DNA of 64,000 nt from Bacteroidia bacterium (GCA_026003215.1 BPGV01000001.1:25570-89569); one strand, 5' to 3'. Positions 5,777 to 32,709 are shown, numbered from the stretch's first letter. Notes: generated by a model not told the origin, from the letters alone. Numbers and translations: made by a program.

Positions 5777-7507
5777 ATGCGATACATAGCCTGGCTGATG
5801 GTATCGGGCTTGCTCTTGTGGGCGCAGCCGCCTAACGATAACCCCTGTGGGGCCATTACGCTCACGCCCAGTGCAGGCTGTACCTACGTAAATGGCAACC
5901 TTAATGGAGCTACCGCTACCCCAGGGATTCCCGCGCCTGGCTGTGCCAACTATCAAGGGGGAGATGTATGGTACGCTTTTCCTGTGCCTGTGGGGGGGCG
6001 GGTCATTATCCAGGTGAGTAGCAGCTATGATTTGGGGATGGCTATTTACACGGCTGCAACCTGTACGGGGCCCTTCACCCTCACCGAGTGCGACGATGAC
6101 GATGGCCCTGGCCTCAATCCCACCATCTGTCGCACTGGGGGTAGTAATACTGGTTGTACCGGCATCGATCCAGGGGTCGCCTGTACCTATAATGCAGCCC
6201 TAACGGCCGGCACCACCATATGGATCCGAATATGGCGATATAATAATGGTACGCCTGGCAATACGCCCTTCCAGATATGCGTGATAGATTGTGGGAGTGG
6301 GGGTGGTGGTGGCGGCAGTGGGTGTAATGCAGCAAACTATACCGCCTATTCCTGTCCCTGTCCTACGCCGGGTGGCGGGAGCTGGTGTGGTGGAGGCTGT
6401 ACCTCTGCGGGTATTACCACAGATGATGTATATGCGCCTGCATGGACTTCTCTCCCCTTCTCTTTTTACTTTGCCGGAAATACCTATAACCAAATCCTTA
6501 TCGGCGCAAATGGGCATGTAGTCTTCCCGCCCTCGGGAAAGACCGCCGGAGGTTACGATGGCTACAGCTGGGGCGGGTACACAAGCGATCTATACTCTAT
6601 CCAGTTTCAGTTGGATATAAATCCGGCCTTAGGCGGAACTATTTGTTATCGGACTATAGGCAGCGCTCCTAACCGCTGCTTGGTTGTGCAGTATTGTAAT
6701 GTGCCTTATTTTGGGAGTGCTTGTACGGGCTTGACTTTTACGGGTGAGCTGCGCCTGTGTGAGAATGGAAGCATTCAGATAAATATCGCCAACATGCCTG
6801 TATGTACCGGATGGAATGGCGGGGGCTGCTTTGTAGGAATTGTAGGAGGGTCAGGGGATATGTGGGCTATCCATAATGCCCAGCCTTGTCCAGCGCTGAC
6901 CAATACCTGTTATGCTTTTACGCCACCGCTGAGTTGTCAGGTATCTACGCCGCCGCTGGGGTGCCTGCCCCTGGCCGCGGTCATAGAGCGTTTTGAGGGG
7001 AGCCTCCGTCCCGAAGGGGTTCGCATAGAGTGGGATGTAGCTGAGGAGGAGGATATCCTCCGCTATCGCATAGAGCGCAGTGGAGACCTTCAGCGCTGGG
7101 AAAGCATAGGGGAGCTCCCTCCGCAAGGGAGCGGAAGCCACTACTTCCTCGTGGATGATGCCTATCCCCGGCAGTATAGCTCACTGTATTATCGCCTTAT
7201 TGTAGTAGAGCAGGTGGGCGGCGAGAAGGCATACGGCCCCATAGAAGTGGTTTTGACTGAAAAGCGGCCTATTCGGCCGGAGCGGTTTGAGCTGCGGGCT
7301 GGGGAGGCCCTACGGTTGCGCTTAGGTACGGGCGAGGAAGTGCGGGCGACCGTGTATGATGCCAGTGGTCGCCGCACATTTGAAGGGTACTTTTCTGGAC
7401 CCGGGGAGGCGGAGATACCCGCTGTGTTTTTCAGTCGGGGTTTTAACATCCTCCTGCTGGAGGTGATGGGGGGCGAGACGGCGGCTTATCGTATCCTGCA
7501 CTACTGA
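5777..7507 (+). CDS. Cysteine-rich secreted protein of 576 aa with a poly-Gly linker.
   Basis: Signal peptide MRYIAWLMVSGLLLWAQ. The N-terminal roughly 350 aa contains more than 30 Cys, separated by a CGSGGGGGGSGC linker. The C-terminal roughly 120 aa (RPERFELRAGEALRLRLG...AYRILHY) looks like a beta-sandwich sorting or adhesion domain. Confidence 0.65.
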   Translation: MRYIAWLMVSGLLLWAQPPNDNPCGAITLTPSAGCTYVNGNLNGATATPGIPAPGCANYQGGDVWYAFPVPVGGRVIIQVSSSYDLGMAIYTAATCTGPFTLTECDDDDGPGLNPTICRTGGSNTGCTGIDPGVACTYNAALTAGTTIWIRIWRYNNGTPGNTPFQICVIDCGSGGGGGGSGCNAANYTAYSCPCPTPGGGSWCGGGCTSAGITTDDVYAPAWTSLPFSFYFAGNTYNQILIGANGHVVFPPSGKTAGGYDGYSWGGYTSDLYSIQFQLDINPALGGTICYRTIGSAPNRCLVVQYCNVPYFGSACTGLTFTGELRLCENGSIQINIANMPVCTGWNGGGCFVGIVGGSGDMWAIHNAQPCPALTNTCYAFTPPLSCQVSTPPLGCLPLAAVIERFEGSLRPEGVRIEWDVAEEEDILRYRIERSGDLQRWESIGELPPQGSGSHYFLVDDAYPRQYSSLYYRLIVVEQVGGEKAYGPIEVVLTEKRPIRPERFELRAGEALRLRLGTGEEVRATVYDASGRRTFEGYFSGPGEAEIPAVFFSRGFNILLLEVMGGETAAYRILHY

Positions 7508-7525
7508 GCCTTCGCTTTTAGGTGC

Positions 7526-7565
7526 GGCGGGGGGATAGCTTCCCCCCGCCACTTTTATGTAGTTT
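7526..7565 (+). terminator. Intrinsic terminator: 10-bp stem ggcgggggga/tccccccgcc, 5-nt loop, then acTTTTatgtagTTTT.
   Basis: Perfect inverted repeat plus U-tract, 19 nt after the stop of the 5777-7507 gene. Confidence 0.6.
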
Positions 7566-7571
7566 TGGGGG

Positions 7572-8945
7572 ATGGCATCGCTTTTTGTATGGCTACGCCG
7601 GCTGCGTGCTGTTGTAGAGCGCTTCCGCATACACCCCGAAATGGATAGCCCAGAGCGTATCCTGGAGGCTATCAGCCGCGATGTGACCTTCCGTGGGATA
7701 AACCTTTGGGTGCTCATCACTGCCACCTTGGTCGCTTCCGTCGGCCTGAATGTCAACTCCACCGCTGTCATCATCGGCGCAATGCTCATCTCGCCTTTGA
7801 TGGGCCCTATCATCGGCGTGGGCGTGAGCTTGGCTATTTATGATATTGCGCTCTTCCGCAAATCTCTGCGTAACCTCGTCGTGGCGGTATTTTTCAGCTT
7901 GGTGGCTAGTTCATTGTACTTCCTCCTCACCCCCCTCAAAGAAGCGGGTAGCGAACTTATCGCGCGTACCAAGCCTACCTTTTGGGACGTACTTATCGCC
8001 TTCTTTGGTGGGCTGTCAGGGGTGATCGCCGCGTTAGGCCGAGAAAAAAAAACCAACATAATCGCAGGCGTAGCGATTGCTACGGCGCTTATGCCGCCGC
8101 TTTGCACGGCGGGATATGGGGTAGGTACCGGCCAGTGGAGTTTTTTCATAGGGGCTTTTTACCTTTTCCTCATAAATGCGGTCTTTATTAGCGCCTCAGC
8201 TTATCTGACTTTTCAAGTCATACGTTTCCCTAACCGAGAGTTTGTAGATAAGTCCTACCAGCAGCGGATTCGGCGGCTTTTGGCGGTAGTAGGCCTTCTT
8301 ACCCTTTTGCCCAGTGTGTATATCGCCTATACCGTCGTGCAAGAAGCCATCCAAGAAGCCCGTGTGCGGCAGTTTGTGGAAAAAGCTTTTGAGGTCTTTC
8401 CCCTCACCAGCGTAGTAGAATACAAAAAAATAAGTGAGGGCGATACCGTACGGCTTCGAGTGGTCTTGGTAGGAGAACCTTTGGCTGAAAAGGATATTCA
8501 ATATCTTGCCCATGAGCTACATACTTCTTATCGCCTCCCGAAGTATCGCCTGGAAGTGGTGCAAGGAATCCTACCCGAAAAGCCTGAGCCTTCTCACCTC
8601 TTAGAGCTTGCCGAACGGAGTCACCAACAGGTGCGCACGCTCAGTGATAGTGTGTATAAACTCCAGCGGGCCTTAGAAGCTTGTCGTAAAGAAAAGGAAA
8701 CGCAAACTCAAGAACTGCTTCAAATAGCTCGAGAGGCACGCAGCCTTTTTCCTGAAATCCAGCGTTTAGGCTTCCAAAAAATGAGACTTTCGGACGGTAA
8801 GTCTTATAGCGGCGATACCGTATATGCGGTGTGGGTTGAAGTACCTTCTAAGAGAAAGTTTGCCGAGGGGGAGCGACTCCAAAAATGGCTCAGCGAGCGG
8901 CTCGGTGGAAAAAAAGTACAAGTATTCCTCCAGCCTACGCGATAA
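7572..8945 (+). CDS. DUF389-family (TIGR00341-like) integral membrane protein.
   Basis: Multi-TM N-terminal half with the conserved LISPLMGPIIG and ALMPPLCTAGYG segments of DUF389, followed by a coiled-coil-like soluble C-terminal half. Confidence 0.65.
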   Translation: MASLFVWLRRLRAVVERFRIHPEMDSPERILEAISRDVTFRGINLWVLITATLVASVGLNVNSTAVIIGAMLISPLMGPIIGVGVSLAIYDIALFRKSLRNLVVAVFFSLVASSLYFLLTPLKEAGSELIARTKPTFWDVLIAFFGGLSGVIAALGREKKTNIIAGVAIATALMPPLCTAGYGVGTGQWSFFIGAFYLFLINAVFISASAYLTFQVIRFPNREFVDKSYQQRIRRLLAVVGLLTLLPSVYIAYTVVQEAIQEARVRQFVEKAFEVFPLTSVVEYKKISEGDTVRLRVVLVGEPLAEKDIQYLAHELHTSYRLPKYRLEVVQGILPEKPEPSHLLELAERSHQQVRTLSDSVYKLQRALEACRKEKETQTQELLQIAREARSLFPEIQRLGFQKMRLSDGKSYSGDTVYAVWVEVPSKRKFAEGERLQKWLSERLGGKKVQVFLQPTR

Positions 8946-8967
8946 AGTCGTACCTTTGCAGCCCAAG

Positions 8968-11115
8968 ATGATCCCTAAAATAGCGACCCCAACGAATGGG
9001 GCAGGTGTAGCGCGTATAGCGCCGCATACCTTTGGTGAGCTTGTCTTCCATCGGGAAGTCATGCGGGAATATCTCTCGGAGACGGCGTTGGACGCCATAG
9101 CCCGGTGGGAAAAAGGCGAGCCTATCTCTGCTGACTTAGCGGACGAAGTGGCCAATGCCTTGCGCCAGTGGGCCATAGACCACGGAGCCACCCATTATAC
9201 GCATTGGTTCCACCCGCTTACAGGCCTTACAGCCGAGAAACACGAAAACTTTTTTGAAGCCGTAGGCGGCAAGGTTATAAGTGGCTTCAACGGAAGTGAG
9301 CTTTTGCAGCAAGAGCCCGATGCCTCGTCCTTTCCCAGTGGCGGGCTGCGCAGCACCTTTGAAGCCCGTGGGTACACGGCATGGGATCCTACTTCGCCGC
9401 CTTTTATTTATGGTCGTACCCTATGCATTCCCTCCGTATATATCTCGTATCACGGAGAAACTTTAGACTATAAGACTCCACTTCTTCGTTCTATTGAGGC
9501 GCTCAACCGTGCCGCGCAAAAGGTCGTTTCCCTCTTTTATCGTGGGGTCGAGCGGGTGTTCCCTACCTTGGGGATAGAGCAGGAGTTTTTCCTTATGGAT
9601 CAGGCGCTGTATGAGCGGCGCTTGGACCTTATGCTTACGGGGCGGACGCTTTTAGGGGCGCCTTCGCCGCGGGGCCAGCAAATGGAAGACCACTACTTTG
9701 GCGCTATACCCCAGCGGGTGTTGGCTTTCTTTGAGGAGCTGGAAGCGGAGGCGTGGCGATTGGGCATCCCCCTCAAAACCCGCCATAACGAAGTAGCCCC
9801 CGCCCAGTATGAATGTGCCCCCGTCTTTGAAGAACTCAATGTAGCGATTGACCACAACCAGCTCCTTATGGACCTTATCCAGCGCACGGCGCGCCGGCAT
9901 GGTCTGGTAGCTCTCCTGCATGAAAAGCCTTTCGCCGGCATCAACGGCTCCGGCAAGCACAATAACTGGTCCCTCGCCACCGATACCGGCCTCAACCTTC
10001 TCTCCCCAGGCAAAAGCGCCAAAGAAAACCTCCGCTTCTTTGCCCTGCTCAGTATAGTGCTGCGCGCTGTGTATCGCCACGCAGACCTACTGCGGGCTAC
10101 GATTGCTACCCCGGGCAACGAACACCGCCTGGGAGGCAACGAAGCGCCGCCTTCTATTTTGTCGGTCTTTTTAGGGAGTCAGGTTTCTAAAGCCATAGAA
10201 GCTTTGGAGAAATCCACGGAAATACCTAAGCTTGTTGAGAAAACGCCTATCTCTTTACTTATTCCTCGGCTGCCGGCGGTTTTGCGCGACAATACCGACC
10301 GCAATCGCACAGCGCCCTTTGCCTTCACAGGGAGTAAGTTTGAGTTTCGGGCGGTGGGGGCGTCGGCGCACTGTGCCCCAGCTATGATTGTGCTCAATGC
10401 GGCGGTGGCGGAGTCGTGTGAGCACTTTGCCACTCAGGTAGCCGAACTCCGCAAGAATGGGCTTAGCCGGGAGGCTGCCATCCTGACGACCATACGAGGC
10501 TTTCTTCAAGAGAGCCACTCTATCCGCTTTGATGGCAATAGTTATGACCCGAGCTGGCATGAAGAGGCCGCGCGTCGGGGCCTCTCCGTGTCTTTCTATA
10601 TCCCTTCGGTGTTGAAAGCTTATATAGCGCCCCAGACTATCTCCCTCTTTGAGAAGCTGGGCATTTTGCGGGAAGAGGAGCTCCATGCCCGCTATGAGGT
10701 GCGGCTGGAGCGGTATGTTAAGGCTTTGGGCATAGAGCTTCATACGCTGGTGGATATATTGCGGACGCAGGTGCTGCCGGCGGCTTTGCGTTATCAGGGA
10801 GAGGTGGCCCAGCTCTTGGCGGCGCCGGCGATGCAGGCGCTTGCTGCTATGGCCCCCGAAAAAACGCCCCAAGAAGCGCTATTTGAGGCCCTTCAGACCC
10901 ATATTCAAGCTCTGTGGGTCGGTCTCCAGCGGGCAGAGGCTGTCTGGCAAGAGGTACAAGCCCTTCCTTCGGCCCAAGCCCAAGCCGAAAAAGTCTATGC
11001 CGAGGTGCGGCCCCTCTTAGCGGAGCTGCGCCAGCATGCAGATGCCTTAGAGACCCTCCTCCCCGCAGACAAGTATCCCCTCCCGCGGTACGCAGATATG
11101 CTTTTTAGGTATTGA
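8968..11115 (+). CDS. glnN: Glutamine synthetase type III (GSIII).
   Basis: The 715-aa product has the GSIII N-terminal domain (HYTHWFHPLTGLTAEKHENFF) and the catalytic region (NEVAPAQYECAPVFEE...HEKPFAGINGSGKHNNWS). I chose the ATG at 8968 because the ORF-track start at 8824 overlaps the previous gene. Confidence 0.85.
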   Translation: MIPKIATPTNGAGVARIAPHTFGELVFHREVMREYLSETALDAIARWEKGEPISADLADEVANALRQWAIDHGATHYTHWFHPLTGLTAEKHENFFEAVGGKVISGFNGSELLQQEPDASSFPSGGLRSTFEARGYTAWDPTSPPFIYGRTLCIPSVYISYHGETLDYKTPLLRSIEALNRAAQKVVSLFYRGVERVFPTLGIEQEFFLMDQALYERRLDLMLTGRTLLGAPSPRGQQMEDHYFGAIPQRVLAFFEELEAEAWRLGIPLKTRHNEVAPAQYECAPVFEELNVAIDHNQLLMDLIQRTARRHGLVALLHEKPFAGINGSGKHNNWSLATDTGLNLLSPGKSAKENLRFFALLSIVLRAVYRHADLLRATIATPGNEHRLGGNEAPPSILSVFLGSQVSKAIEALEKSTEIPKLVEKTPISLLIPRLPAVLRDNTDRNRTAPFAFTGSKFEFRAVGASAHCAPAMIVLNAAVAESCEHFATQVAELRKNGLSREAAILTTIRGFLQESHSIRFDGNSYDPSWHEEAARRGLSVSFYIPSVLKAYIAPQTISLFEKLGILREEELHARYEVRLERYVKALGIELHTLVDILRTQVLPAALRYQGEVAQLLAAPAMQALAAMAPEKTPQEALFEALQTHIQALWVGLQRAEAVWQEVQALPSAQAQAEKVYAEVRPLLAELRQHADALETLLPADKYPLPRYADMLFRY

Positions 11116-11136
11116 GTATGGGCAAGCCTGCTCCCC

Positions 11137-11865
11137 GTGCGCGGGTGCCGGATACCCGGCGGGGTGAAGGTCCAGCTGGACAAGGTTCCGCCCTGGAACC
11201 CCGAGGAAGAGCTCAGATTGCGGGGGCAGCTTGCGCAGGTGGTCGGACCCGCTGTAGGTCCGCCGGTAGAGGGGGGAGAGGCTATCCAACGCTTGCTTTC
11301 CCTTCTCCAGCTTCTTGATCCCAAGGGGAAAATAGCCACAGTCGCCAGCTTATTTGAAGGCTTCTTGTGGAGCGTGGGAAGCGTCCATCGCCATAAAAAA
11401 GGCCACCTCCAACTCAACTGGGCACGCACCGAGTTTGCCCTTGAAGAAAAGCCCATCTCCGAAAAATGGGAAGATTTTTTAGATTACGTGTCCCGCATAA
11501 TAGAAGCGATCTCTCCGAGCTATTCCTTAGAAAAGCTGGAACGAGTCACGGTAGAATGGGTATATTATTTTCCAACAGAAGAATCCCCATTTACTAAGTT
11601 TCAGCCTTCCTTGATTAAAGAGCTGCCTAAGCCGCTTCGTTGGAGTTACGAAGTCTTAGCGGATCCTGACCGAATGGAGCGCCTGCTTGTATCTGTGCGG
11701 GATTTTTATGAAGCAGCCAGCCCGCCTTTTGGCCAACTCATGGCGGTCTATACAGGGCCCAAGGTGCCCATAAAGCACATAGGCGAGTGGATACACACAG
11801 CTCGGAATAGCGCACAAGAGCTTATAAATCGTATATTTGCTTCTGACTTCCCCTTGGCGCTATGA
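11137..11865 (+). CDS. Hypothetical protein A of the AT-rich cassette (up to 242 aa; real start uncertain).
   Basis: A long ORF whose 5' roughly 200 nt is GC-rich and gives a Gly/Pro/Arg-rich translation, so it is probably not coding. The remainder is AT-richer with a protein-like translation (...ISEKWEDFLDYVSRIIEAISPSYSLEKLERVTVEWVYYFPTEESPF...). In-frame TTG/GTG codons near 11290-11370 are alternative starts. The stop overlaps the next gene's ATG as ATGA. Confidence 0.45.
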   Translation: MRGCRIPGGVKVQLDKVPPWNPEEELRLRGQLAQVVGPAVGPPVEGGEAIQRLLSLLQLLDPKGKIATVASLFEGFLWSVGSVHRHKKGHLQLNWARTEFALEEKPISEKWEDFLDYVSRIIEAISPSYSLEKLERVTVEWVYYFPTEESPFTKFQPSLIKELPKPLRWSYEVLADPDRMERLLVSVRDFYEAASPPFGQLMAVYTGPKVPIKHIGEWIHTARNSAQELINRIFASDFPLAL

Positions 11866-12203
11866 TAGAGCTACTCTTATCCCAGGAAAGCTATGCCCAG
11901 CCTGGGTTTGATGAGAAATGGGAGGCTCAGTTAGTGGAGTATCCTGGCGTACGCTCCTTGGTTCGAGAGATATCCCATATAGTGGATAAATACTTTTCAC
12001 GGTCTCGGCCCCAGGTAGCTCTCAAAGTAGATGAAGAGGACGAGGAACCCACTTTGCTTTATACCATAAAGCGTGACCCAGCCATAGACAAGAATCAGTT
12101 TTGGGATCTTTTTGTAAAAGCAGATGATGAATATCTAAAACTTTTGCGGGAAAACTATAACAAATATCCTGACGGTCAGTATCTTATTTTTCGGTTAGGG
12201 TGA
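11862..12203 (+). CDS. Hypothetical protein B of the AT-rich cassette (113 aa, acidic).
   Basis: An AT-rich ORF translationally coupled to protein A. There is no recognisable motif, and no GSx...DxD nucleotidyltransferase signature. Confidence 0.5.
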   Translation: MIELLLSQESYAQPGFDEKWEAQLVEYPGVRSLVREISHIVDKYFSRSRPQVALKVDEEDEEPTLLYTIKRDPAIDKNQFWDLFVKADDEYLKLLRENYNKYPDGQYLIFRLG

Positions 12204-12228
12204 GGGAGGAATCGGGCTACTTTCTTTT

Positions 12229-12666
12229 ATGGGTTTTAGGTGGTCGGAGTTTGAGGAGGTAGCAAAAAAGTTGGAAAATATAGCGGAAGGAGATATAGAG
12301 TGGAAAGAAGGGGCCCTACGTTCAGCCATAGGACGTTTGTATTATGCTGCATTCAATCAGGTACGCGAGTGGGCGATACGGCGAGGATTTAGGGATCCTC
12401 GCTCAGGAGCTGTGCATGGTAACTTAAGGGACTTTGTAGCAAAGGAAGGCTATCGTGACATAGCTAAGTTATTGAAAGTCCTTCATGATAGCAGGAAAAA
12501 TGTGGATTATAGTATGGTTTTGGATAAAGATTCGGATCTAATGCTAAAAGAAGCCAAACGGAATTATGAGCTTATAGTGAAATGGCTCGGCTCCTTGTCA
12601 GAAAATATGCTGGAAAGCGAAGAAGGTTTGGACTCCTTCGTGGCTGCGGGCGATATCCCAGCGTAG
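12229..12666 (+). CDS. HEPN-like small protein C (145 aa), a candidate toxin/RNase component.
   Basis: Predicted all-alpha protein with ALRSAIGRLYYAAFNQVREWA followed by RDPRSGAVHGNL (R-x4-H, the HEPN signature spacing), then a second helix pair (DIAKLLKVLHDS...EAKRNYELIVKWL). The last 22 codons (12599-12666) are antisense to the 3' end of the Omp85 gene, so the ORF reads across the insertion junction. Confidence 0.5.
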   Translation: MGFRWSEFEEVAKKLENIAEGDIEWKEGALRSAIGRLYYAAFNQVREWAIRRGFRDPRSGAVHGNLRDFVAKEGYRDIAKLLKVLHDSRKNVDYSMVLDKDSDLMLKEAKRNYELIVKWLGSLSENMLESEEGLDSFVAAGDIPA

Positions 12667-14029
12667 GATAGTGCTTTGGTTCCATATCAAGCGCAGGCCT
12701 GCGCCGGGCGCGCCTATCCAGCCGGTGAAGGTAGGCTTGATTTGACGCAGGTAGTCCCACACCGTGCCCGCATCATAAAACGCTACAGTCCCTATAATCC
12801 AGTCTTGTTTTAGCAGGCGGAAACCCTACAGAGGGCTCCGCAGTTCGGCGTTGATTTGGGCGGTGGCGAGGGCTACGAAGCGGCTCTCGCGAAAGCCTCG
12901 CACCGAACGTGCCCCACCTAAGACCAAAATGCCTCCGGCTTCTGCCTGGCTGGAGAGGTCATACAGCTCAATCCAGTTGATGCGTTTGCCCCAGATGTAG
13001 CCGAAGGCTGCCAATCCCGCCAAGGTAAGGCGGCCCCAGCGCCCCCACCGCACCGGCGTATAAAAGCCCACCGATTGCACCCTAATCTTATTCATGCGGA
13101 AGTCTGCGCCCAGCCATGGCGCCTGCAGTTCATGGGAGTACTCCAAGAAAACCCCGCGTGTGGGGTCCGGCTCTAAATCGCGGGTGTCGTACATGACCAC
13201 CCAGGCCCAAATGCTGCTTATCCACCAGCGGCGGCTCTCTTCGTACCCTGTCACATGCAGCGCATCCCATATACCCGCTTGCCGATCTTTTTCCAGCTGG
13301 GTAGAACGATGTATCGCTTCTACCACTTGGCCTTCGGGGGATTTTACCCGCACTTTTTGACCGGCGTAACTGCGAAAACGCGTAAGGTCTATCTCATACC
13401 CTAAAAATACCCGCACTCGGCTCTCAGCCAAAAGCCTTTCAAAAGCCACATTGTACAGTTGCGACTCTAAAAAAATGCGGTTGTACTTAGCATCTGTATA
13501 AAGGACCCCTCCGCTGTCAAAAGGTATTTCTAAGGCTTCCTCATAGGGTTTTATCCGCGTAAAGGTTTGGGGTGGTGAGTTACCCCGGGCAGGAACGGTA
13601 AGTGCTTCAAAGAGCCGCTTGCGTCCCATCCCCCAATATTGCCCATCCGGGTCGCGAATAATCTCTACATTGGCCCGCATGCGATAAGGCTTATCCAAGA
13701 GAAAAGTAGCGTCATAGTTAGCGGAGAAGATATAGCGGGTATTTTCGAACAAAAACAGGTTAGCGTTTAAACGATGACGATAGGAGCTGTAAGCGAAAAA
13801 GGGGTCTTGACGGGTTTTGTTGAAGTAGATATACCCTTCGGCTCCTATGCCGAAGCCCCGAATAGGGTCCTATTCCCAGCGAGGCAGCCCTGTGGCGAAA
13901 GTTCCTTCGTGCTTTTGGGCTAACTCCGTCTCTGCCAGTTTTTTAGAGGGGTGGATGTAAAAAGGCAAGGGGGGAGGGAGAAAGCGACTGGGCCCATAGG
14001 ATTACACTGAACCCTATACCTAAGCGCAT
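12599..14029 (-). pseudogene. Omp85/BamA-family (surface antigen D15 beta-barrel, no POTRA) outer-membrane protein gene, disrupted by two in-frame TAG codons and one C-run frameshift.
   Basis: The signal peptide MRLGIGFSVILWAQ starts at 14029. A +1 shift is needed in the C6 run (plus-strand G6, 13966-13975). There are in-frame TAG codons at 13870-13872 and 12823-12825. Conserved barrel motifs are intact (GFGIGAEGYIYFN..., GGARSVRGFRESRF...NAELRSPL*GF...VAFYDAGTVW...) and the canonical C-terminal Phe (FAFQHIF*) is at 12599-12601. TAG terminates several confident genes here, so suppression or reassignment is unlikely. Confidence 0.7.
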
Positions 14030-14101
14030 GCCGCAAAGTACGGCTGGAGGGTGGAAGGAAATGCCGATGTATAAGGCACAAGGTTTGCTACTTTTGCGGA
14101 T

Positions 14102-14626
14102 ATGTTAAGGAGCCTAAGTAAGTATGCTTGGGGTTTACTCAGCCTGGCCCTCGTCTATGTGGGGGGGTGTAAGCGGGGCTCTTGTGAGGGCGTGGCTTGC
14201 CTGAATGGCGGCACTTGCCGCGGCGGTCGCTGTGAGTGTCCGCCCGGCTTCTCGGGGGGACGCTGCGAGGTCAAATGGACTGATAGCTGGACAGGTACCT
14301 ACACCGTAGATGACCGCTGCCAGGTCGTGGGACTCATTCCCCAGTACGAGGCCAGCGTATCCGCTTCCACCGTCTATCCCGATGTGATTTATTTTGAAGG
14401 CTTTGGGGATATCCACTGTCAGGGGCAGCGCTTGCGGGTAGAGGGACGGCTTACCAGTCCTACGACAGTGAGTATAGCTCGGCAGAGCAGCTGCGACCGC
14501 CGCTATAGCGTAGAAGGCTCCGGCACCTTAGACCCTACCAACCGCCGCCTCACTATCACTTACTACTACTGGGACTTTCAAACTGGCCTGCAAGACACCT
14601 GTACGGCGGTGTGGGTGCGGTACTGA
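14102..14626 (+). CDS. Lipoprotein with an EGF-like domain.
   Basis: Lipoprotein signal and lipobox LSLALVYVGGC. It is followed immediately by CEGVACLNGGTCRGGRCECPPGFSGGRCE, the canonical six-Cys EGF spacing C-x-C-x5-G-x-C-x-C-x2-GF-x-G-x2-C. Confidence 0.7.
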   Translation: MLRSLSKYAWGLLSLALVYVGGCKRGSCEGVACLNGGTCRGGRCECPPGFSGGRCEVKWTDSWTGTYTVDDRCQVVGLIPQYEASVSASTVYPDVIYFEGFGDIHCQGQRLRVEGRLTSPTTVSIARQSSCDRRYSVEGSGTLDPTNRRLTITYYYWDFQTGLQDTCTAVWVRY

Positions 14627-14723
14627 GACCACTCGGCCCGCTCTTTCTACGACTTAGCCTGTGTAGGCAACCGTTCAAGCTTGAACTTCGGATTTAAGAA
14701 AAGGAGGTTTGTACCTTTGGTAC

Positions 14724-17678
14724 ATGACAGGCAAGATGCGCATAGGGCTGCTTGTACTCGGTGTAAGCCTCCTGACGGCCCAGACTATCTTTTACTCGCA
14801 GGACTTCAATAGCGGGGTGCCGGCCGACTGGAGCCTCAATACCAGCGATATGGGCAGTGTCACAAACGGCTACAACTACTGGACCGTCGGCGCCGATTAT
14901 AATACAAGCGTGTCTCCTAATCCTTTTGAGGTTCCGTGTTCATTCTTGGGGTGTGTGCCAGCGACAGTTGTCCCTGTTATTCCCAACCAGCCGGCGGCTA
15001 TCCCCGGCGCGCCTAATTCTCCTTTTCTGCATATTGCTTATGACGGGAGTTATAGCAGTAGTGCGGGCTGTATGGCTCCAAATGTCGTTACTACTTCTTT
15101 TCTCGCAGCGGATGGGGTATGTGCCTTAGCCCAAAACTACTTTGCTCGGCTGAATACCCCTATCCCTATTCCTGCGGGCACAGCGCCGGTCAAACTCAGC
15201 TTTTTCTGGCTATGCAAAGGCGGCCCTGCCTGGTACGGGGAAGTGCTGTATGGTACCGGACCCACCGTGCCCACCACTTGGTTTAGCTTGACCTCCAGCG
15301 TGACGGGAACCAACGTCTTGAACAACCATGATGGTCAGTGGTATGCCGACACGATTACGCTGCCAATTACGCGGCCGGCGCAGCTCTGGATAGCCTTCCG
15401 CTTCGTAAATAATAATGGGACCACGGGGGGAGATCCGCCCTTAGCGGTGGATATGATTCGGGTCTTTGATGTCCCGGTGGCTACGCCTACCCTTACCTTA
15501 GACAATGCCACCCCTAACCCAGTGTGTGCGGGCAATACCCTAACTGTCTCCTACACAGCGCAAAACTTCCCCACTGGCACCACCTACACTGCTCAGCTCC
15601 TCAATGCCAGCAATACGGTAGTAGCGTCCGCCTCGGGTTCCAGTCCTATTGCCCTGACTATCCCGGCCACCTTGCCCAGTGGTACCTACACCCTCCGAGT
15701 GCAAGCGAATACTACCCCCCCGACCAATAGCAATACCGTCCCTATCACCGTTGTGAATGTACAATCCCTCTCCTGCTCTGCAAACCCCAATCCCGCTCAG
15801 GTGGGTGCCGCCGTCTCCTTATCTCTCAACGGAACCAATCTCCCCAGCGGGCCTTTTAATATCCAGATGAACCCCGGCGATGGCAGCCCTCCCCAATCTC
15901 AAGCCAACGTGGCTGCCTTGCCCGTGACCTTCAGCCACACCTACACCGCCGCAGGGACCTATACCGTGACCTTTACGATTACGCATCCCGCTTCGGGGTG
16001 TAGTGGCACCTGTACGGTACCGGTGACCGTACAGCCCCCCACCACGAATACGATTGATTTGGTGAGTGTGACCCCGTCGCCTGTCTGTGCAGGTAATACT
16101 ATCACGGTGACCTTCACGCCCTCAGGCACCTATAACTCGGGCAATCTCTTTCGGGTGCAGCTTTCGGATGCGACGGGTTCCTTTGCTGCACCCCAAAATA
16201 TCGGGGTCGGGGCCACCAGCCCTATCACAGCCACTATCCCTCCTACGACGCCTTCAGGCACCTATGGGGTTCGTGTGGTGAGTACCTCGCCGGCAGTGGT
16301 GAGCGATACCCTGAGTGTGGATGTTGTTAATCTCAGTGGTCTTACGTGTTCGTATAACCCTACACCGGCGTTGGTGGGTACAGCTACTACGCTCACGATA
16401 GGGGGGAGTGGCTTACCCAGCGGGCCTTTTGATGTCCGTGTGGATGTGGATGGGGATGCTACGGCGGACTATACGCAAAATGGGGTGGCGCTTCCGTATA
16501 GCTTTACCCATACCTATACGGCAGGGGGAACCTACAACGTGACTTTTACGGTGACGCATCCTGCTTCCGGCTGCACGGGCACCTGTAATATGACGGTGCA
16601 GGTACAAGGGCAAGGCCTCTCCGCTACCAATCTGACCCCGGATACCCTCTGTGCGGGCGAATCTTTCACGGTGGATTATACCAGTGTAGGGATAACCTTT
16701 GCAGCGGGCAATACTTTTACGGTGGAGGCACGAGATGGGAGCGGGAACTTGGTGTTTAGCTGTCCTACGGCGAGTACAGCGACGAGTGGTACCTTAAGCT
16801 GTACGGTACCGGCGGGCACGCCTCCCGGCAGCTATACCGTGCAGGTGGTGAGTAGCAATCCTGCTTACACCAGTGGCAGTTTGAGCGTAGGGGTGAGTGC
16901 GCCGCCGGTGGCGGACTTTGCCCCTGATGCTAACCTGCGCTTCTGCGTAGGGACCCCTATCCGTTTTACCAACCGTTCTCAGAATGCCCTCTCTGTGCAG
17001 TGGGACTTTGGCGATGGCACCACGAGTACCAGCCTCAATCCTACCCACACCTATACCCAGCCGGGCACTTACACGGTGACGCTGACGGCCTCGGTGAGTC
17101 CGACTTGTACAGACCAAATCCAGCGGACGGTAGAGATACTTCCGCTGCCGCAAGCTTCCTTTACGGTGCAGCCACCTACGCTGACACTGCCCGAGCAAAC
17201 CACCGTCACCCTCACCAATACTTCTACGGGAGCCGCTACCTATCAGTGGGACTTCGGAAACGGCCAAACCAGCACTGCCCCGAATCCTACCGCTACCTAT
17301 AACCAAGAAGGGGACTACACTATTACCCTCACGGCTATTTCCGCCGACGGGTGTAGAGATACGGCGCAGTACCTCCTCGTCGTGCGCTACGCGCAATCCT
17401 TAGCTATCCCGAACGCCTTTACCCCTAATAGCGATGGCATCAACGATCGATTTGTGATACGCTATGTAGGGATGGAACGCTTGCAGGTGCGGCTCTATGA
17501 CCGCTGGGGAAATGAAATCTTTTCTCAGCAGCAGGCCGCGCCTGCGGGCACCATAGAGTGGGATGGCACGCGTAATGGCCAGCCCGCACCCGAAGGGGTG
17601 TATACCGGCCTGGTGGAGGGGCGCACGATAGACGGAAAAGAGGTTCGCAAGGGCTTTACGGTGACCCTCCTGCGCTGA
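14724..17678 (+). CDS. Large secreted T9SS type-B substrate with tandem Ig-like/PKD repeats and a gliding-motility-associated C-terminal domain (CHU_C).
   Basis: Signal peptide MTGKMRIGLLVLGVSLLTAQ. There are three roughly 180-aa divergent repeats, each ending in a PKD-like motif (SFSHTYTAAGTYTVTFTITHPASGCSGTC; WDFGDGTTSTSLNPTHTYTQPGTYTVTLTA; YQWDFGNGQTSTAPNPTATYNQEGDYTITLTA). The C-terminus IPNAFTPNSDGINDRFVIRYVGMERLQVRLYDRWGNEIF...GKEVRKGFTVTLLR is a T9SS type-B sorting domain. Confidence 0.85.
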   Translation: MTGKMRIGLLVLGVSLLTAQTIFYSQDFNSGVPADWSLNTSDMGSVTNGYNYWTVGADYNTSVSPNPFEVPCSFLGCVPATVVPVIPNQPAAIPGAPNSPFLHIAYDGSYSSSAGCMAPNVVTTSFLAADGVCALAQNYFARLNTPIPIPAGTAPVKLSFFWLCKGGPAWYGEVLYGTGPTVPTTWFSLTSSVTGTNVLNNHDGQWYADTITLPITRPAQLWIAFRFVNNNGTTGGDPPLAVDMIRVFDVPVATPTLTLDNATPNPVCAGNTLTVSYTAQNFPTGTTYTAQLLNASNTVVASASGSSPIALTIPATLPSGTYTLRVQANTTPPTNSNTVPITVVNVQSLSCSANPNPAQVGAAVSLSLNGTNLPSGPFNIQMNPGDGSPPQSQANVAALPVTFSHTYTAAGTYTVTFTITHPASGCSGTCTVPVTVQPPTTNTIDLVSVTPSPVCAGNTITVTFTPSGTYNSGNLFRVQLSDATGSFAAPQNIGVGATSPITATIPPTTPSGTYGVRVVSTSPAVVSDTLSVDVVNLSGLTCSYNPTPALVGTATTLTIGGSGLPSGPFDVRVDVDGDATADYTQNGVALPYSFTHTYTAGGTYNVTFTVTHPASGCTGTCNMTVQVQGQGLSATNLTPDTLCAGESFTVDYTSVGITFAAGNTFTVEARDGSGNLVFSCPTASTATSGTLSCTVPAGTPPGSYTVQVVSSNPAYTSGSLSVGVSAPPVADFAPDANLRFCVGTPIRFTNRSQNALSVQWDFGDGTTSTSLNPTHTYTQPGTYTVTLTASVSPTCTDQIQRTVEILPLPQASFTVQPPTLTLPEQTTVTLTNTSTGAATYQWDFGNGQTSTAPNPTATYNQEGDYTITLTAISADGCRDTAQYLLVVRYAQSLAIPNAFTPNSDGINDRFVIRYVGMERLQVRLYDRWGNEIFSQQQAAPAGTIEWDGTRNGQPAPEGVYTGLVEGRTIDGKEVRKGFTVTLLR

Positions 17679-30408: not shown

Positions 30409-32709
30409 TTGTCGTTTCTTAGGGGTATGAAACGGGCACAAAGCCACCAACCTCTCTCGCTGGGCTTTGTGCAACCTTTAGGTCTCCCACAGCGTATAAG
30501 GCATGTGCTACGAGTTTGCCTACTCATAGGGCTGGTGGGCCTAAGCTGGGCGGAGGGAACCCGCGAGCTTATGAATGGAAACTGCGCAAACTTTGGCTTT
30601 ATCCAAATCTGGGACAATAATGACCCTCTGCGGAACTTTGCTACCTATAACTGCCCCGAATACGCTCGCTTGTATGTACGTGTAGCGGGTGGCGAACGCA
30701 TCTATATGGGGTTCCATGTCATTAATCCTGCTAATGGTAATCCTATCGGCGATGTATACATGCGTTTGAAGGACCCAAATGGAAATGTGGTATTTGGCCC
30801 TATTAACCTCAATAACGGCATGGCGGCAGGCTGGATAAACACCTGTGCGCAAGCTATGGCCGGCCCGGCAGCGCTCACGCCTGGTGGGTATAATGCGCTT
30901 GTCTACAATGTACCTGCCGGCCTTGGGGGAAACTACTACATAGAGTTTGCTGTCAACAACAATCCTACGCTGTATCAAGTGCGACAGTTTCGATGGTTTG
31001 ATGTCACGGTAGCCCGTTGGAACGGCACCCAGTGGGTGGAGCGACGCGGACGCCTATGGAGCCGCAAGTGGGACTTCACTACCCGAGGGGCGAATAACCC
31101 TTTTGTAGGCACGCTCTACACCTATTCCACGGATTCGGTGGTGACGAGTTTCAACTTCAACGGGATGCGTCCCTGGGGGTTTGAGGTCAGCTGCAACTCT
31201 TTTGGCGCTTCTAATGTAGGCACGCCGCAGCAGCGTCGCCGCTCCGACTACCGTCAAAATATCCTCAACGCCGGGGGAATCCCCGCTGCCCCGGAGTATC
31301 CCGTCTTTCTTAATGACCCTGACCCCGAGTTTTATCCCACAGGTATCGTCGCCAGCGTAGATTCTTTTTCGGTCATTCCTTGTACCGAAATGAGCTATTG
31401 CATCTATGTTTCGCTCTCCAAGCCCGGCCAAGTGTCGGTGACCTTGACCTTTCCCAATACTTCCTACGTTCCCCGTACCTTCATTGAGAACCTCAACGCT
31501 GGCCCGAACTGTATCCCCTGGGATGGCACCGACGGCAATGGTATCCCTGTGGCTAACGGTACCACCGTAAATGCTCAGCTGGACTTTTTTACGGGACTTA
31601 CCCACCTTCCCCTCGTAGATGTGGAACACCACAACAATGGCTTTAGGGTCTTCTTAGTGCGTCCTACGACCCGGCCGAATGGGACCCCGCTCCCTGACCC
31701 GCGTGTGTATTGGGATGACATCCTGCTGAATGACCCCGTCAATTCCTTGGACGGTGTGCAAAACCTCACGGGATGCCAGCCTACCCCAGCTTTGGGCTGC
31801 CACCGCTGGCAAAACCGCGGTACCAATAACGCCAATCCTGAGGTCATCAATACCTGGTGGTATACCAATACCGAGCAGCATACCTTTGTTCTGAATATAG
31901 ACCCTAACAAATGGCGGATTTTCTCGGAAATCCTCAACTGTGGTGGACCTAATGGCGTACAGATTCATTTTTGGTTTTGGCATGAGATACCTTTCTCTTC
32001 TGTCTCGTGGAATATCTCTACCAATCCGCCGGGCCTTTTAGGCACTCCTAACCCTCCTACTGTGGATAGTACGACCGACCCCAACTGGACCCATGTGTGG
32101 GTTACCTATCCGATTGTGGGTAATGGCTCTAATGTTACGATTACTTTCCAGGTGAGTGCGGTTTCCAGTAAGTATCCTTATTGTCAAGACCAAGCTACCC
32201 TAAGCTGTACGGTGCTGCCTGTGGTGTGGGCACAAGAGCTGGAAGGGCGCGCCTATCCCGGCTATAATGCGCTCTACTGGGCCACTGCGGTGGAAGAAGG
32301 TATTCAAGGCTTTTGGGTAGAGCGGGCTGTGGATAATGGGCCTTTTGAGACGCTCCGTTTTATCCCTTCTCAGGGACGCGGCCAGGCCTATCACCTGCGT
32401 GATGACAATCCCCCGCCTGCTGCTCGCTGGTGGTATCGTCTCCGCATAGAGGAAGCCGGCCTGCCCCCGGTGTATTCCCGCACCGTAGAACTACTATCTC
32501 AGGAGCAGGGCCCGCAAATAACCATCGCTGCGGATGCGCGGATGCTCCACCTGTATAGTCCTGAGCCCCTCCTCGTTGAAGTCTATACCCTCTTAGGTCA
32601 GCAGGTATGGCAGGCAGAGCTAACCACCGGTAGCTACACTTTACCCCTGCCGTCAGGGGCTTACCTCTTGCGTGCAGGCTCAGTAGTGCGCCGCTTTTTC
32701 CTGCCTTAG
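30409..32709 (+). CDS. Large secreted hypothetical protein carrying a T9SS type-A (Por_Secre_tail) C-terminal sorting domain.
   Basis: Signal-like N-terminus (VLRVCLLIGLVGLSWAEG). The product is 766 aa with no recognised catalytic domain. The C-terminus ...PLLVEVYTLLGQQVWQAELTTGSYTLPLPSGAYLLRAGSVVRRFFLP matches the TIGR04183-type CTD. Confidence 0.75.
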   Translation: MSFLRGMKRAQSHQPLSLGFVQPLGLPQRIRHVLRVCLLIGLVGLSWAEGTRELMNGNCANFGFIQIWDNNDPLRNFATYNCPEYARLYVRVAGGERIYMGFHVINPANGNPIGDVYMRLKDPNGNVVFGPINLNNGMAAGWINTCAQAMAGPAALTPGGYNALVYNVPAGLGGNYYIEFAVNNNPTLYQVRQFRWFDVTVARWNGTQWVERRGRLWSRKWDFTTRGANNPFVGTLYTYSTDSVVTSFNFNGMRPWGFEVSCNSFGASNVGTPQQRRRSDYRQNILNAGGIPAAPEYPVFLNDPDPEFYPTGIVASVDSFSVIPCTEMSYCIYVSLSKPGQVSVTLTFPNTSYVPRTFIENLNAGPNCIPWDGTDGNGIPVANGTTVNAQLDFFTGLTHLPLVDVEHHNNGFRVFLVRPTTRPNGTPLPDPRVYWDDILLNDPVNSLDGVQNLTGCQPTPALGCHRWQNRGTNNANPEVINTWWYTNTEQHTFVLNIDPNKWRIFSEILNCGGPNGVQIHFWFWHEIPFSSVSWNISTNPPGLLGTPNPPTVDSTTDPNWTHVWVTYPIVGNGSNVTITFQVSAVSSKYPYCQDQATLSCTVLPVVWAQELEGRAYPGYNALYWATAVEEGIQGFWVERAVDNGPFETLRFIPSQGRGQAYHLRDDNPPPAARWWYRLRIEEAGLPPVYSRTVELLSQEQGPQITIAADARMLHLYSPEPLLVEVYTLLGQQVWQAELTTGSYTLPLPSGAYLLRAGSVVRRFFLP

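What the first reader, a model, noticed from the sequence alone, without database searches (positions are those of the whole stretch)
12599..14029. Omp85-family outer-membrane protein gene carrying two in-frame amber codons and a C-run frameshift yet otherwise intact
Reconstructing the minus strand gives a complete Bac_surface_Ag-type barrel protein of about 475 aa with no POTRA domains. It runs from a signal peptide (MRLGIGFSVILWAQ at 14029) to the canonical C-terminal Phe (…FAFQHIF, stop at 12599-12601). Three lesions interrupt it. The first is a frame change in a C6 run (plus-strand G6, 13966-13975). The second is a TAG at 13870-13872. The third is a TAG at 12823-12825, which falls exactly inside the conserved …NAELRSPL|GF… region. 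All conserved motifs on either side of the lesions are preserved, so inactivation is recent. Alternatively the TAGs are read through, but TAG clearly terminates other genes here (the HEPN ORF, the T9SS cargo at 32709 and GH57). The AT-rich cassette abuts the gene's 3' end.
Basis: seen in the sequence. Interest (0 to 1): 0.5.

Follow-up and report, generated by a model that had tools for sequence, protein, structure and literature searches.

The report
Decaying Omp85 outer-membrane pseudogene
This is a dead copy of an outer-membrane barrel protein gene in an uncultured hot-spring bacterium; it carries the same two stop mutations in three independent assemblies and is decaying further in relatives, so it is an ordinary pseudogene and not a sequencing error or a recoded gene.

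Summary
On the minus strand, 14029..12598, lies a 476-codon POTRA-less Omp85 gene of the DUF5982 / NF047779 family.

The window comes from the PacBio-HiFi MAG 'Bacteroidia bacterium KatS3mg025'. Three other assemblies of the same clade settle the question.
- A 99%-identical MAG has the same C6 run and both TAGs, plus one extra 1-bp deletion.
- A ~96%-identical Illumina contig has both TAGs and the same frame discordance. It also has a lost start codon, 30-bp and 11-bp deletions and two 1-bp deletions.
- A sister lineage (~80-90% identical) keeps TAT (Tyr) at the second site but has lost the 5' ~930 bp of the gene.

Ten related species carry uninterrupted genes with Tyr (TAT/TAC) at both sites. 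Within the clade dN/dS is 0.6-0.9, against 0.03-0.10 in intact orthologues. The window copy also breaks 6 of 133 near-invariant residues. TAG ends 13 of 48 large ORFs in the window.

Verdict: a real, population-wide pseudogene. It is older than "recent" suggests, and the frame change cannot be attributed to the C-run. Ordinary; low interest.

The parts
12598..14029 (-). Whole pseudogene. It is the relic of a DUF5982-type, POTRA-less ('noNterm') Omp85 outer-membrane barrel gene, 476 codons once repaired.
   Evidence: translation. NF047779 at 346 bits end to end, DUF5982 at 87 bits, PF01103 at 58 bits; 70-72% identity to intact 481-522 aa orthologues.
13988..14029 (-). Signal-peptide remnant MRLGIGFSVILWAQ. 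It lies in a different frame from the rest of the gene.
   Evidence: frame 2; it ends in 'AQ', like the signal peptides of most orthologues. The mature frame has three stops across this stretch and no usable start.
13969..13987 (-). Zone in which the reading frame changes. It includes the C6 run at 13969-13974. The exact lesion cannot be located.
   Evidence: In L004 the run reads CCCTCACCC (+3 nt) and the frame discordance is the same. L029 has the identical C6. In the mature frame the run and the bases before it read LPPPLPFYIHPS, which resembles orthologue P0005's LPPPPFYIHPS, so the shift may lie upstream of the run.
13777..13968 (-). DUF5982 domain region (residues 21-84 of the repaired protein). 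It spans the first TAG.
   Evidence: PF19412, profile positions 1-64/64, E = 5.5e-25.
13870..13872 (-). Nonsense codon 1 (codon 53), TAG derived from Tyr TAT.
   Evidence: Orthologue context is CGCTGGGAATATGACCCTATT; the window reads CGCTGGGAATAGGACCCTATT. Ten related species have Tyr TAT/TAC here. The TAG is shared by L029 and L004.
12676..13296 (-). Omp85 (bacterial surface antigen) barrel domain as matched by Pfam (residues 245-451). It contains the VRGF loop-6 motif and the FYDAG motif.
   Evidence: The motifs were read directly in the translation. Their definition follows PMC11358297.
12826..12828 (-). Nonsense codon 2 (codon 401), TAG derived from Tyr TAT.
   Evidence: It is shared by L029 and L004. 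The sister lineage L030 has TAT at the homologous position. The orthologues where the site could be read have TAT or TAC.
12598..12600 (-). Original terminator TGA, after the C-terminal ...FAFQHIF.
   Evidence: The C-terminal FFAFQHIF is identical in all ten related species.
12868..12870 (-). Example of decay beyond the three lesions: P387L (CCC>CTC), a change specific to the window at a residue invariant in 120 orthologues. Others are F352W (12973-12975), A277V (13198-13200), M316R, G203S and P108T.
   Evidence: conserved-column test. (polarised substitutions, 12869 C>T in the window only).

Best explanation
Window 12598-14029 (minus strand) is a non-functional relic of a DUF5982-type, POTRA-less Omp85 outer-membrane beta-barrel gene in the uncultured hot-spring Bacteroidia lineage represented by MAG KatS3mg025.

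The ancestral gene encoded a protein of about 480 aa: a signal peptide followed by a barrel.

In the common ancestor of the sampled strains (window, L029, L004) it acquired three lesions:
- a frame change between the signal peptide and the mature part;
- a Tyr TAT>TAG nonsense mutation at codon 53;
- a second TAT>TAG nonsense mutation at codon 401.

Any one of the three prevents a secreted, complete barrel from being made. Since then the sequence has drifted neutrally. Each strain has added its own damage: amino-acid changes at otherwise invariant residues in the window, a 1-bp deletion in L029, and start-codon loss plus four deletions in L004. A sister lineage (L030) lost the 5' two-thirds of the gene independently.

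Shown: the lesions, their sharing between assemblies, the ancestral codons, the relaxed substitution pattern and the intact state in related species.

Inferred: that no product is made, and that the gene became dispensable in this lineage. The Leptospira homologue tolerates transposon disruption (PMC11358297).
For: 1. Family and continuity. The repaired frame matches NF047779 end to end, plus DUF5982 and PF01103. The best 120 of 234 homologues listed are single proteins of 442-588 aa that cover 94-100% of the query. Alignment A1 places Tyr at both TAG sites in the five closest orthologues.

2. The lesions are real.
- The window is from a PacBio-HiFi MAG (PMC9671151).
- L029 is a different sample (NCBI GCA_026416395.1), 99.1% identical. 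It has the same C6 run and both TAGs.
- L004 is a Logan contig from run DRR082460, 95.9% identical. It has both TAGs and the same frame discordance.

3. Continuing decay.
- L004 adds ATG>AGG at the start codon, 30-bp and 11-bp deletions and two 1-bp deletions.
- L029 adds a 1-bp deletion.
- L030 lacks about 930 bp of the 5' part.

4. Ancestral state. L030 has TAT at site 2. Ten related species have uninterrupted ORFs with TAT or TAC: at site 1 in all ten, and at site 2 in the seven where my pattern located it.

5. Relaxed selection.
- Differences between the window and L004 fall 18/15/16 over the three codon positions, and dN/dS is 0.73. For window-L029 it is 0.60 and for L029-L004 it is 0.87.
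- Intact orthologue pairs give 0.03-0.10. The flanking GSIII gene gives 0.05-0.21.
- Pseudogene dN (0.034) is about equal to GSIII dS (0.033) for window-L004.
- The window copy breaks 6 of 133 near-invariant columns, against a mean of 0.53 for orthologues.

6. TAG is an ordinary terminator. It ends 13 of 48 large ORFs, including proteins whose exact sequences are on record. No other gene in the window is interrupted by a TAG.
Against: - No expression or proteome data exist, so the absence of a product is inferred.
- The dN/dS values within the clade rest on only 15-49 substitutions.
- The Logan contigs are automatic short-read assemblies, so an occasional indel in L004 could be an assembly error. 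The two TAGs appear in all three assemblies regardless.
- The window copy is still a continuous frame of 476 codons with the key motifs. On its own that would also fit a very young pseudogene or a recoded gene.
- I could not search the rest of the 2.27-Mb genome for a suppressor tRNA or for an intact paralogue.
Confidence: 0.93

Rival explanations
1. Sequencing or assembly artefact: the gene is intact in the organism, and the two TAGs and the extra C are errors of the long-read assembly.
For: The window comes from a metagenome assembly. Homopolymer length is the commonest residual error of long-read data (my own knowledge).
Against: - The data are PacBio HiFi reads above Q20.
- An independent MAG from another sample (L029) has the identical C6 run and both TAGs.
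- A contig from a separate sequencing run (L004) has both TAGs and the same frame discordance.
- Substitution errors that produce the same two stop codons in three assemblies are not credible.
Confidence: 0.01
2. The gene is functional through recoding: TAG is read as Tyr (or another residue) by a suppressor tRNA or by read-through, and a +1 ribosomal frameshift occurs at the C-run.
For: Both TAGs replace Tyr codons. The rest of the frame is open, with the VRGF and FYDAG motifs and the C-terminal Phe present.
Against: - TAG ends 13 of 48 large ORFs, and no other gene in the window has an internal TAG.
- No tRNA lies in the window.
- Strains that share the TAGs carry additional frameshifts, deletions and a lost start codon. 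These would not be tolerated if the gene were still translated usefully.
- dN/dS is 0.6-0.9 and invariant residues have been lost.
- AT>CG changes make up 10 of 55 polarised substitutions in this pseudogene, so two TAT>TAG events are not unusual.
Confidence: 0.02
3. Phase-variable (contingency) surface-protein gene: slippage in the C-run switches the outer-membrane protein on and off.
For: A homopolymer lies just after the signal peptide of a surface-exposed protein, a classic position for phase variation (my own knowledge).
Against: - The run has only 6 bases and has the same length in the window and L029.
- In L004 it is interrupted (CCCTCACCC), differs by 3 nt and does not change the frame.
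- Even in the 'on' frame, the two downstream TAGs would truncate the product at residue 52.
Confidence: 0.01
4. The loss was selected rather than neutral. The barrel was a liability, for example as a phage or predator receptor or because it was costly in the hot-spring niche. Null alleles swept, which would explain inactivation in two sister lineages by different lesions.
For: - The inactivating events appear independent. The window/L029/L004 lineage has TAG at site 2. L030 keeps TAT there but has a 5' deletion.
- L030's remnant is still an open frame of 168 codons.
- Clade-versus-L030 dN/dS of 0.17-0.20 indicates that constraint held for most of the time since the split.
Against: - One shared early lesion in the 5' part, now deleted in L030, could equally explain both lineages.
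- Loss of a dispensable paralogue by drift is the default explanation.
- There are no data on phage receptors, and no test for a selective sweep was possible.
Confidence: 0.12

Closest known systems
DUF5982-containing 'noNterm' Omp85 proteins (NCBIfam NF047779; Pfam PF19412 + PF01103), described for Leptospira LIC12252/12254/12258 and Cytophagales orthologues by Bettin et al. 2024 (PMC11358297)
   Same: - Same architecture: a signal peptide, the DUF5982 segment (first two strands plus a short periplasmic stretch), then an Omp85 barrel, with no POTRA domains.
- End-to-end profile match at 346 bits.
- VRGF and FYDAG lid-lock-type motifs and a C-terminal aromatic residue.
- The family is non-essential where it has been tested: a transposon mutant is viable.
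   Different: The copy here is dead. It has a frame change after the signal peptide, two nonsense codons and six substitutions at near-invariant positions. The function of the family itself is unknown.
Intact orthologues in related hot-spring Bacteroidia MAGs (P0001-P0005; loci L001-L003 and L031-L039; e.g. isolates SKW77, SKYG92, DT_Bin_51)
   Same: 67-73% amino-acid identity over the whole length. The C-terminus FFAFQHIF is identical. The DNA context around site 1 is identical in L001-L003 except for the T>G change.
   Different: - They are uninterrupted ORFs with Tyr codons at both sites.
- Their gene neighbourhoods differ from the window's. A paralogous rather than strictly orthologous relationship therefore cannot be excluded.
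BamA / TamA (POTRA-bearing Omp85 insertases)
   Same: They share the Omp85 barrel domain. There is a weak match to TIGR03303 BamA over residues 269-427.
   Different: The BamA score is 26.8 bits against a cut-off of 297. There are no POTRA domains, and only about 20 residues precede the barrel. This is not BamA, so its loss says nothing about essential outer-membrane biogenesis.

Membership tests
Omp85 superfamily (PF01103) | Match to the Omp85 barrel profile above Pfam's gathering score | tested here: met
Omp85 superfamily (PF01103) | Loop-6 (V/L/M)RG(F/Y/W) motif, FxDxG motif on strand 13, and a C-terminal aromatic beta-signal | tested here: met
   Read directly in the translation: SVRGF, FYDAG and ...FAFQHIF. 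The motif definitions are taken from PMC11358297.
Omp85 superfamily (PF01103) | 16-stranded beta-barrel fold | not tested
   No structure was predicted. No solved structure is detectable by sequence.
DUF5982 noNterm Omp85 subfamily (NF047779) | End-to-end match to NF047779 above its cut-off | tested here: met
   346.1 bits against 200, profile positions 1-423 of 423.
DUF5982 noNterm Omp85 subfamily (NF047779) | DUF5982 segment at the N-terminus of the barrel | tested here: met
   PF19412 at 87.4 bits against 23.9, profile 1-64/64. It spans TAG 1.
DUF5982 noNterm Omp85 subfamily (NF047779) | No POTRA or other periplasmic N-terminal domain | tested here: met
   no POTRA family at E <= 1. Only 20 residues precede DUF5982.
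Functional member of that subfamily (an expressed gene) | Uninterrupted reading frame from an in-frame signal peptide to the C-terminal Phe | tested here: not met
   the signal peptide is in another frame, and TAGs stand at codons 53 and 401.
Pseudogene | Disabling lesions at positions that are sense codons in orthologues | tested here: met
   Tyr TAT/TAC in ten related species (site 1 in all ten, site 2 in the seven where it could be read), all with open frames.
Pseudogene | Lesions reproducible in independent data, so not sequencing error | tested here: met
   L029 and L004 share both TAGs and the frame discordance.
Pseudogene | Relaxed selection: dN/dS near 1, substitutions spread evenly over codon positions, conserved residues lost | tested here: met
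   dN/dS 0.60-0.87, differences 18/15/16 by codon position; baseline 0.03-0.10 in intact orthologues; 6 departures in 133 conserved columns against a mean of 0.53. The counts are small.
Pseudogene | No protein product | not testable with these tools
   This needs a metaproteome or metatranscriptome.
Stop-codon reassignment or programmed read-through | TAG avoided as a terminator, with in-frame TAGs in many genes | tested here: not met
   TAG ends 13 of 48 large ORFs, and no other gene is interrupted by a TAG.
Stop-codon reassignment or programmed read-through | Cognate suppressor tRNA (CUA anticodon) | not testable with these tools
   there are no tRNA genes in the 64-kb window. The rest of the genome is not available.
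Phase-variable contingency locus | Homopolymer tract whose length varies between strains and toggles the frame | tested here: not met
   C6 in both the window and L029. L004 has CCCTCACCC (+3 nt), with no change of frame.

The most novel reading that the evidence does not exclude
The DUF5982-Omp85 barrel was lost twice, independently, in sister hot-spring Bacteroidia lineages: by nonsense and frameshift lesions in the KatS3mg025 lineage and by a 5' deletion in the ERR14790943 lineage. The cause would be selection against the surface protein, for example escape from a phage that uses it as a receptor. That would give a first ecological handle on a widespread Omp85 subfamily of unknown function.
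Probability: 0.1. Interest if true: 0.35.

Novelty: already known. Interest (0 to 1): 0.08.

Why it matters
It matters little beyond correct annotation.

- Coordinates 12598-14029 should be annotated as one pseudogene. They should not be called as several short 'hypothetical' or 'Omp85' fragments. One automatic gene call on the sister MAG gives a 259-aa Omp85 fragment.
- The result shows that this POTRA-less DUF5982 Omp85 is dispensable in at least one thermophilic Bacteroidia lineage. That agrees with the viable Leptospira mutant.
- It is a clean example of using independent public assemblies in place of read pile-ups to separate real lesions from assembly errors.

Tried and rejected
- First genome-contig scan, using exact peptides from the window: no relative found, so the window's species is not among the GTDB representatives held.
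- Metagenome-contig scan: only 57-73% relatives, and no contig of the window's species at this locus.
- Exact look-ups with the 174-aa neighbour and with the 736-aa GSIII product returned only contigs I already had.
- tRNA scan of the window for a suppressor: no tRNA genes at all.
- Sequence search against solved structures: no hit.
- Promoter and terminator consensus scan of 12400-14300: counts no higher than in shuffled sequence, so uninformative.
- Pfam on the three ORFs of the neighbouring cassette: no hits. PADLOC gave only a weak HEPN_IX match for the 145-aa ORF, E = 7.6e-5.
- A special mutational cause for the two TAT>TAG changes. Both are T>G in an A-T-G context, as is L004's ATG>AGG. 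I rejected this as unnecessary, because AT>CG changes are 10 of 55 polarised substitutions here.
- Structure prediction was not run.

Full report
**1. What is in the sequence**

Reading the minus strand of 12300-14300 and translating all three frames shows one long frame running from about 13985 to a TGA at 12598-12600. Exactly two TAG codons break it, at 13870-13872 and 12826-12828.

Upstream, an ATG at 14029 opens a short ORF in another frame, MRLGIGFSVILWAQ.... It has the look of a signal peptide. The mature frame carries three stops across that stretch and has no usable start. The only C6 run is at 13969-13974. Dropping one C joins the two frames into 476 codons that end ...FAFQHIF.

**2. 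What the gene was**

- The repaired product matches NCBIfam NF047779 'Omp85 family outer membrane protein' from the first to the last profile position, at 346 bits against a cut-off of 200.
- It also matches Pfam DUF5982 (residues 21-84, so across the first TAG) and the Omp85 barrel domain PF01103.
- The match to BamA is far below its cut-off, and no POTRA domain is found.
- A search of 5.8 billion protein clusters gave 234 hits. The best 120 listed are single proteins of 442-588 aa with DUF5982 + Omp85, and the closest (70-72% identity) come from hot-spring Bacteroidia MAGs.
- This is the 'noNterm' DUF5982 Omp85 subfamily described in Leptospira and Cytophagales. Its function is unknown, and a transposon mutant of one Leptospira paralogue is viable (PMC11358297).
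- In the alignment the signal peptide ends in 'AQ', as in most orthologues, and both TAGs stand where the five closest orthologues have Tyr.

**3. Source of the window**

Ten neighbouring ORFs are exact matches to proteins GIV22378-GIV22421 of 'MAG: Bacteroidia bacterium KatS3mg025', on a contig of 2,268,343 bp. The matching study assembled PacBio HiFi reads with metaFlye from 52 °C sediment of Katase hot spring (PMC9671151). I inferred the link between the KatS3mg025 name and that study's 'mg025' from the names alone.

**4. Independent assemblies in place of read pile-ups**

Exact look-ups of neighbouring proteins retrieved three other assemblies of this locus. I aligned them to the window.

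| Locus | Source | Identity to window | State of the gene |
|---|---|---|---|
| L029 | NCBI GCA_026416395.1 | 99.1% over window 8946-17104 | Same C6 run and both TAGs, plus a 1-bp deletion near 12974 |
| L004 | Logan contig from run DRR082460 | 95.9% over the gene | Both TAGs and the same discordance between signal-peptide and mature frames. The run reads CCCTCACCC there. Also has ATG>AGG at the start, a 30-bp and an 11-bp deletion and two 1-bp deletions |
| L030 | Logan contig from ERR14790943 | 79-91%, a sister lineage | Lacks about 930 bp of the 5' part. Keeps an open remnant of 168 codons, with TAT (Tyr) at the position of the second TAG |

The lesions are therefore real. They are shared by all three sampled assemblies of the window's own lineage, and the gene keeps decaying in different ways in each.

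The frame change cannot be attributed to slippage in the C6 run. L004 has the same discordance without a homopolymer. In the mature frame, the run and the bases before it encode LPPPLPFY, which resembles an orthologue's LPPPPFY.

**5. Ancestral state**

- In the three closest orthologue loci fetched first, the DNA around site 1 is CGCTGGGAATATGACCCTATT. That is identical to the window except for T>G.
- Site 2 is TAT in two of them and TAC in the third.
- A second scan of species-representative genomes returned nine related MAG species at 67-73% identity and one at 57%.
- All ten have uninterrupted frames ending FFAFQHIF. All ten have TAT or TAC at site 1, and the seven in which my search pattern located site 2 have TAT or TAC there too.
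- Both nonsense codons are thus TAT>TAG transversions, not CAG>TAG.

**6. Selection**

| Comparison | dN/dS | Note |
|---|---|---|
| Window vs L004 (pseudogene) | 0.73 | Differences 18/15/16 over codon positions 1/2/3 |
| Window vs L029 (pseudogene) | 0.60 | |
| L029 vs L004 (pseudogene) | 0.87 | |
| Clade vs L030 (168 shared codons) | 0.17-0.20 | Differences mostly at third positions |
| Intact orthologue pairs at similar dS | 0.03-0.10 | |
| Flanking glutamine synthetase III | 0.05-0.21 | |

For window-L004, dN of the pseudogene (0.034) equals dS of GSIII (0.033). The sequence has therefore evolved neutrally for the whole time since these strains diverged. For most of the longer time since the split from L030 it was still constrained. 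Inactivation happened shortly before the sampled strains began to diverge. It is recent at genus scale but not strain-specific.

In a conserved-column test against 120 orthologues, the window copy departs from 6 of 133 columns conserved in at least 97% of them: P108T, G203S, A277V, M316R, F352W and P387L. Orthologues average 0.53, and 82 of 120 have none. At least A277V, P387L and an L>W change at codon 274 arose in the window's own branch.

**7. Rivals**

- **Read-through or reassignment of TAG.** This does not fit. TAG ends 13 of 48 large ORFs, including proteins whose exact sequence is on record. A scan for frames interrupted only by TAG found no other candidate gene. The window has no tRNA gene. 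The extra frameshifts in L004 and L029 show the frame is not being maintained.
- **Phase variation.** This does not fit a 6-base run that has the same length in two strains and is interrupted in a third. Two stops lie downstream in any case.
- **Assembly error.** The independent assemblies exclude it.
- **Special mutational process.** Both nonsense changes are T>G in an A-T-G context, but no special process is needed. AT>CG changes are 10 of 55 polarised substitutions in this pseudogene.

**8. Open point: was the loss neutral or selected?**

The window lineage and L030 were disabled by different visible lesions, which hints at independent loss. An older shared lesion in the part now deleted from L030 cannot be excluded. 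I could not search the rest of the genome for a paralogue that would make this copy redundant. None of the 120 homologues listed lies on the 2.27-Mb contig, but weaker paralogues would not have been listed.

**9. Verdict**

The main interpretation, a pseudogene and not a read-through gene, is right. Four points need correction:
- the inactivation is shared across the sampled population, not recent in one strain;
- the copy has already lost several invariant residues;
- the ancestral codons were Tyr TAT;
- the C-run is not demonstrably the site of the frameshift.

This is an ordinary decaying pseudogene of a known family.

Noticed in passing
window 11106-12588 (ORFs 11137-11865, 11862-12203, 12229-12666): The lower-GC three-ORF cassette (48% GC against 55% for the window) is present in the window, L029 and the sister lineage L030. 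It is absent from L004, where about 100 bp joins the GSIII stop to the Omp85 stop. Because the outgroup L030 has it, L004 probably deleted it; by eye L004 keeps short remnants of both ends. The ORFs have no Pfam hits. The 145-aa ORF has only a weak PADLOC HEPN_IX match (E = 7.6e-5). Its 3' end overlaps the Omp85 3' end, tail to tail, by 69 bp, and the same overlap is seen in L030.
   Followed up: partly
window 7510-8945 (DUF389 gene 7572-8945): The DUF389 membrane-protein gene is present in the window and in eight Logan contigs. It is missing from L029, where 537 bp replace it, and from L030. Where it is present, the GSIII ORF gains an extended N-terminal reading frame that overlaps its end. 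This is a presence/absence polymorphism within the species.
   Followed up: partly
L029 10001-11733 (homologous to window 5777-7507): The 576-aa protein (named DUF3999 in L029's annotation) is intact in the window and in L030. In the sister MAG L029 it is split into products of 142 and 408 aa. That is either another strain-specific gene disruption or an assembly error in that MAG.
   Followed up: no
window 14102-14626 and 14709-17678: Relatedness between strains is mosaic. The 174-aa EGF-like ORF is 100% identical between the window and L004 but has dS 0.16 against L029. GSIII and the pseudogene show the opposite pattern (L029 closer). The region 13846-16006, which covers the start of the PKD/CHU_C surface protein, is only 89% identical to L004. 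This suggests recombination between strains around a variable surface-protein gene.
   Followed up: partly
window 13990-14090 (5' end and upstream region of the pseudogene): Divergence from L004 is much higher here than in the body of the pseudogene: about 10 substitutions in the 40 bp of the signal-peptide segment, against about 3.6% elsewhere. Either the promoter and leader have decayed faster, or a recombination boundary falls here.
   Followed up: no
L005 (Logan DRR290133 contig), end = window 11115: This contig is 99.97% identical to the window and stops exactly at the GSIII stop codon, which is the cassette boundary. An assembly break caused by cassette-present and cassette-absent strains co-occurring in that sample would explain it.
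   Followed up: no
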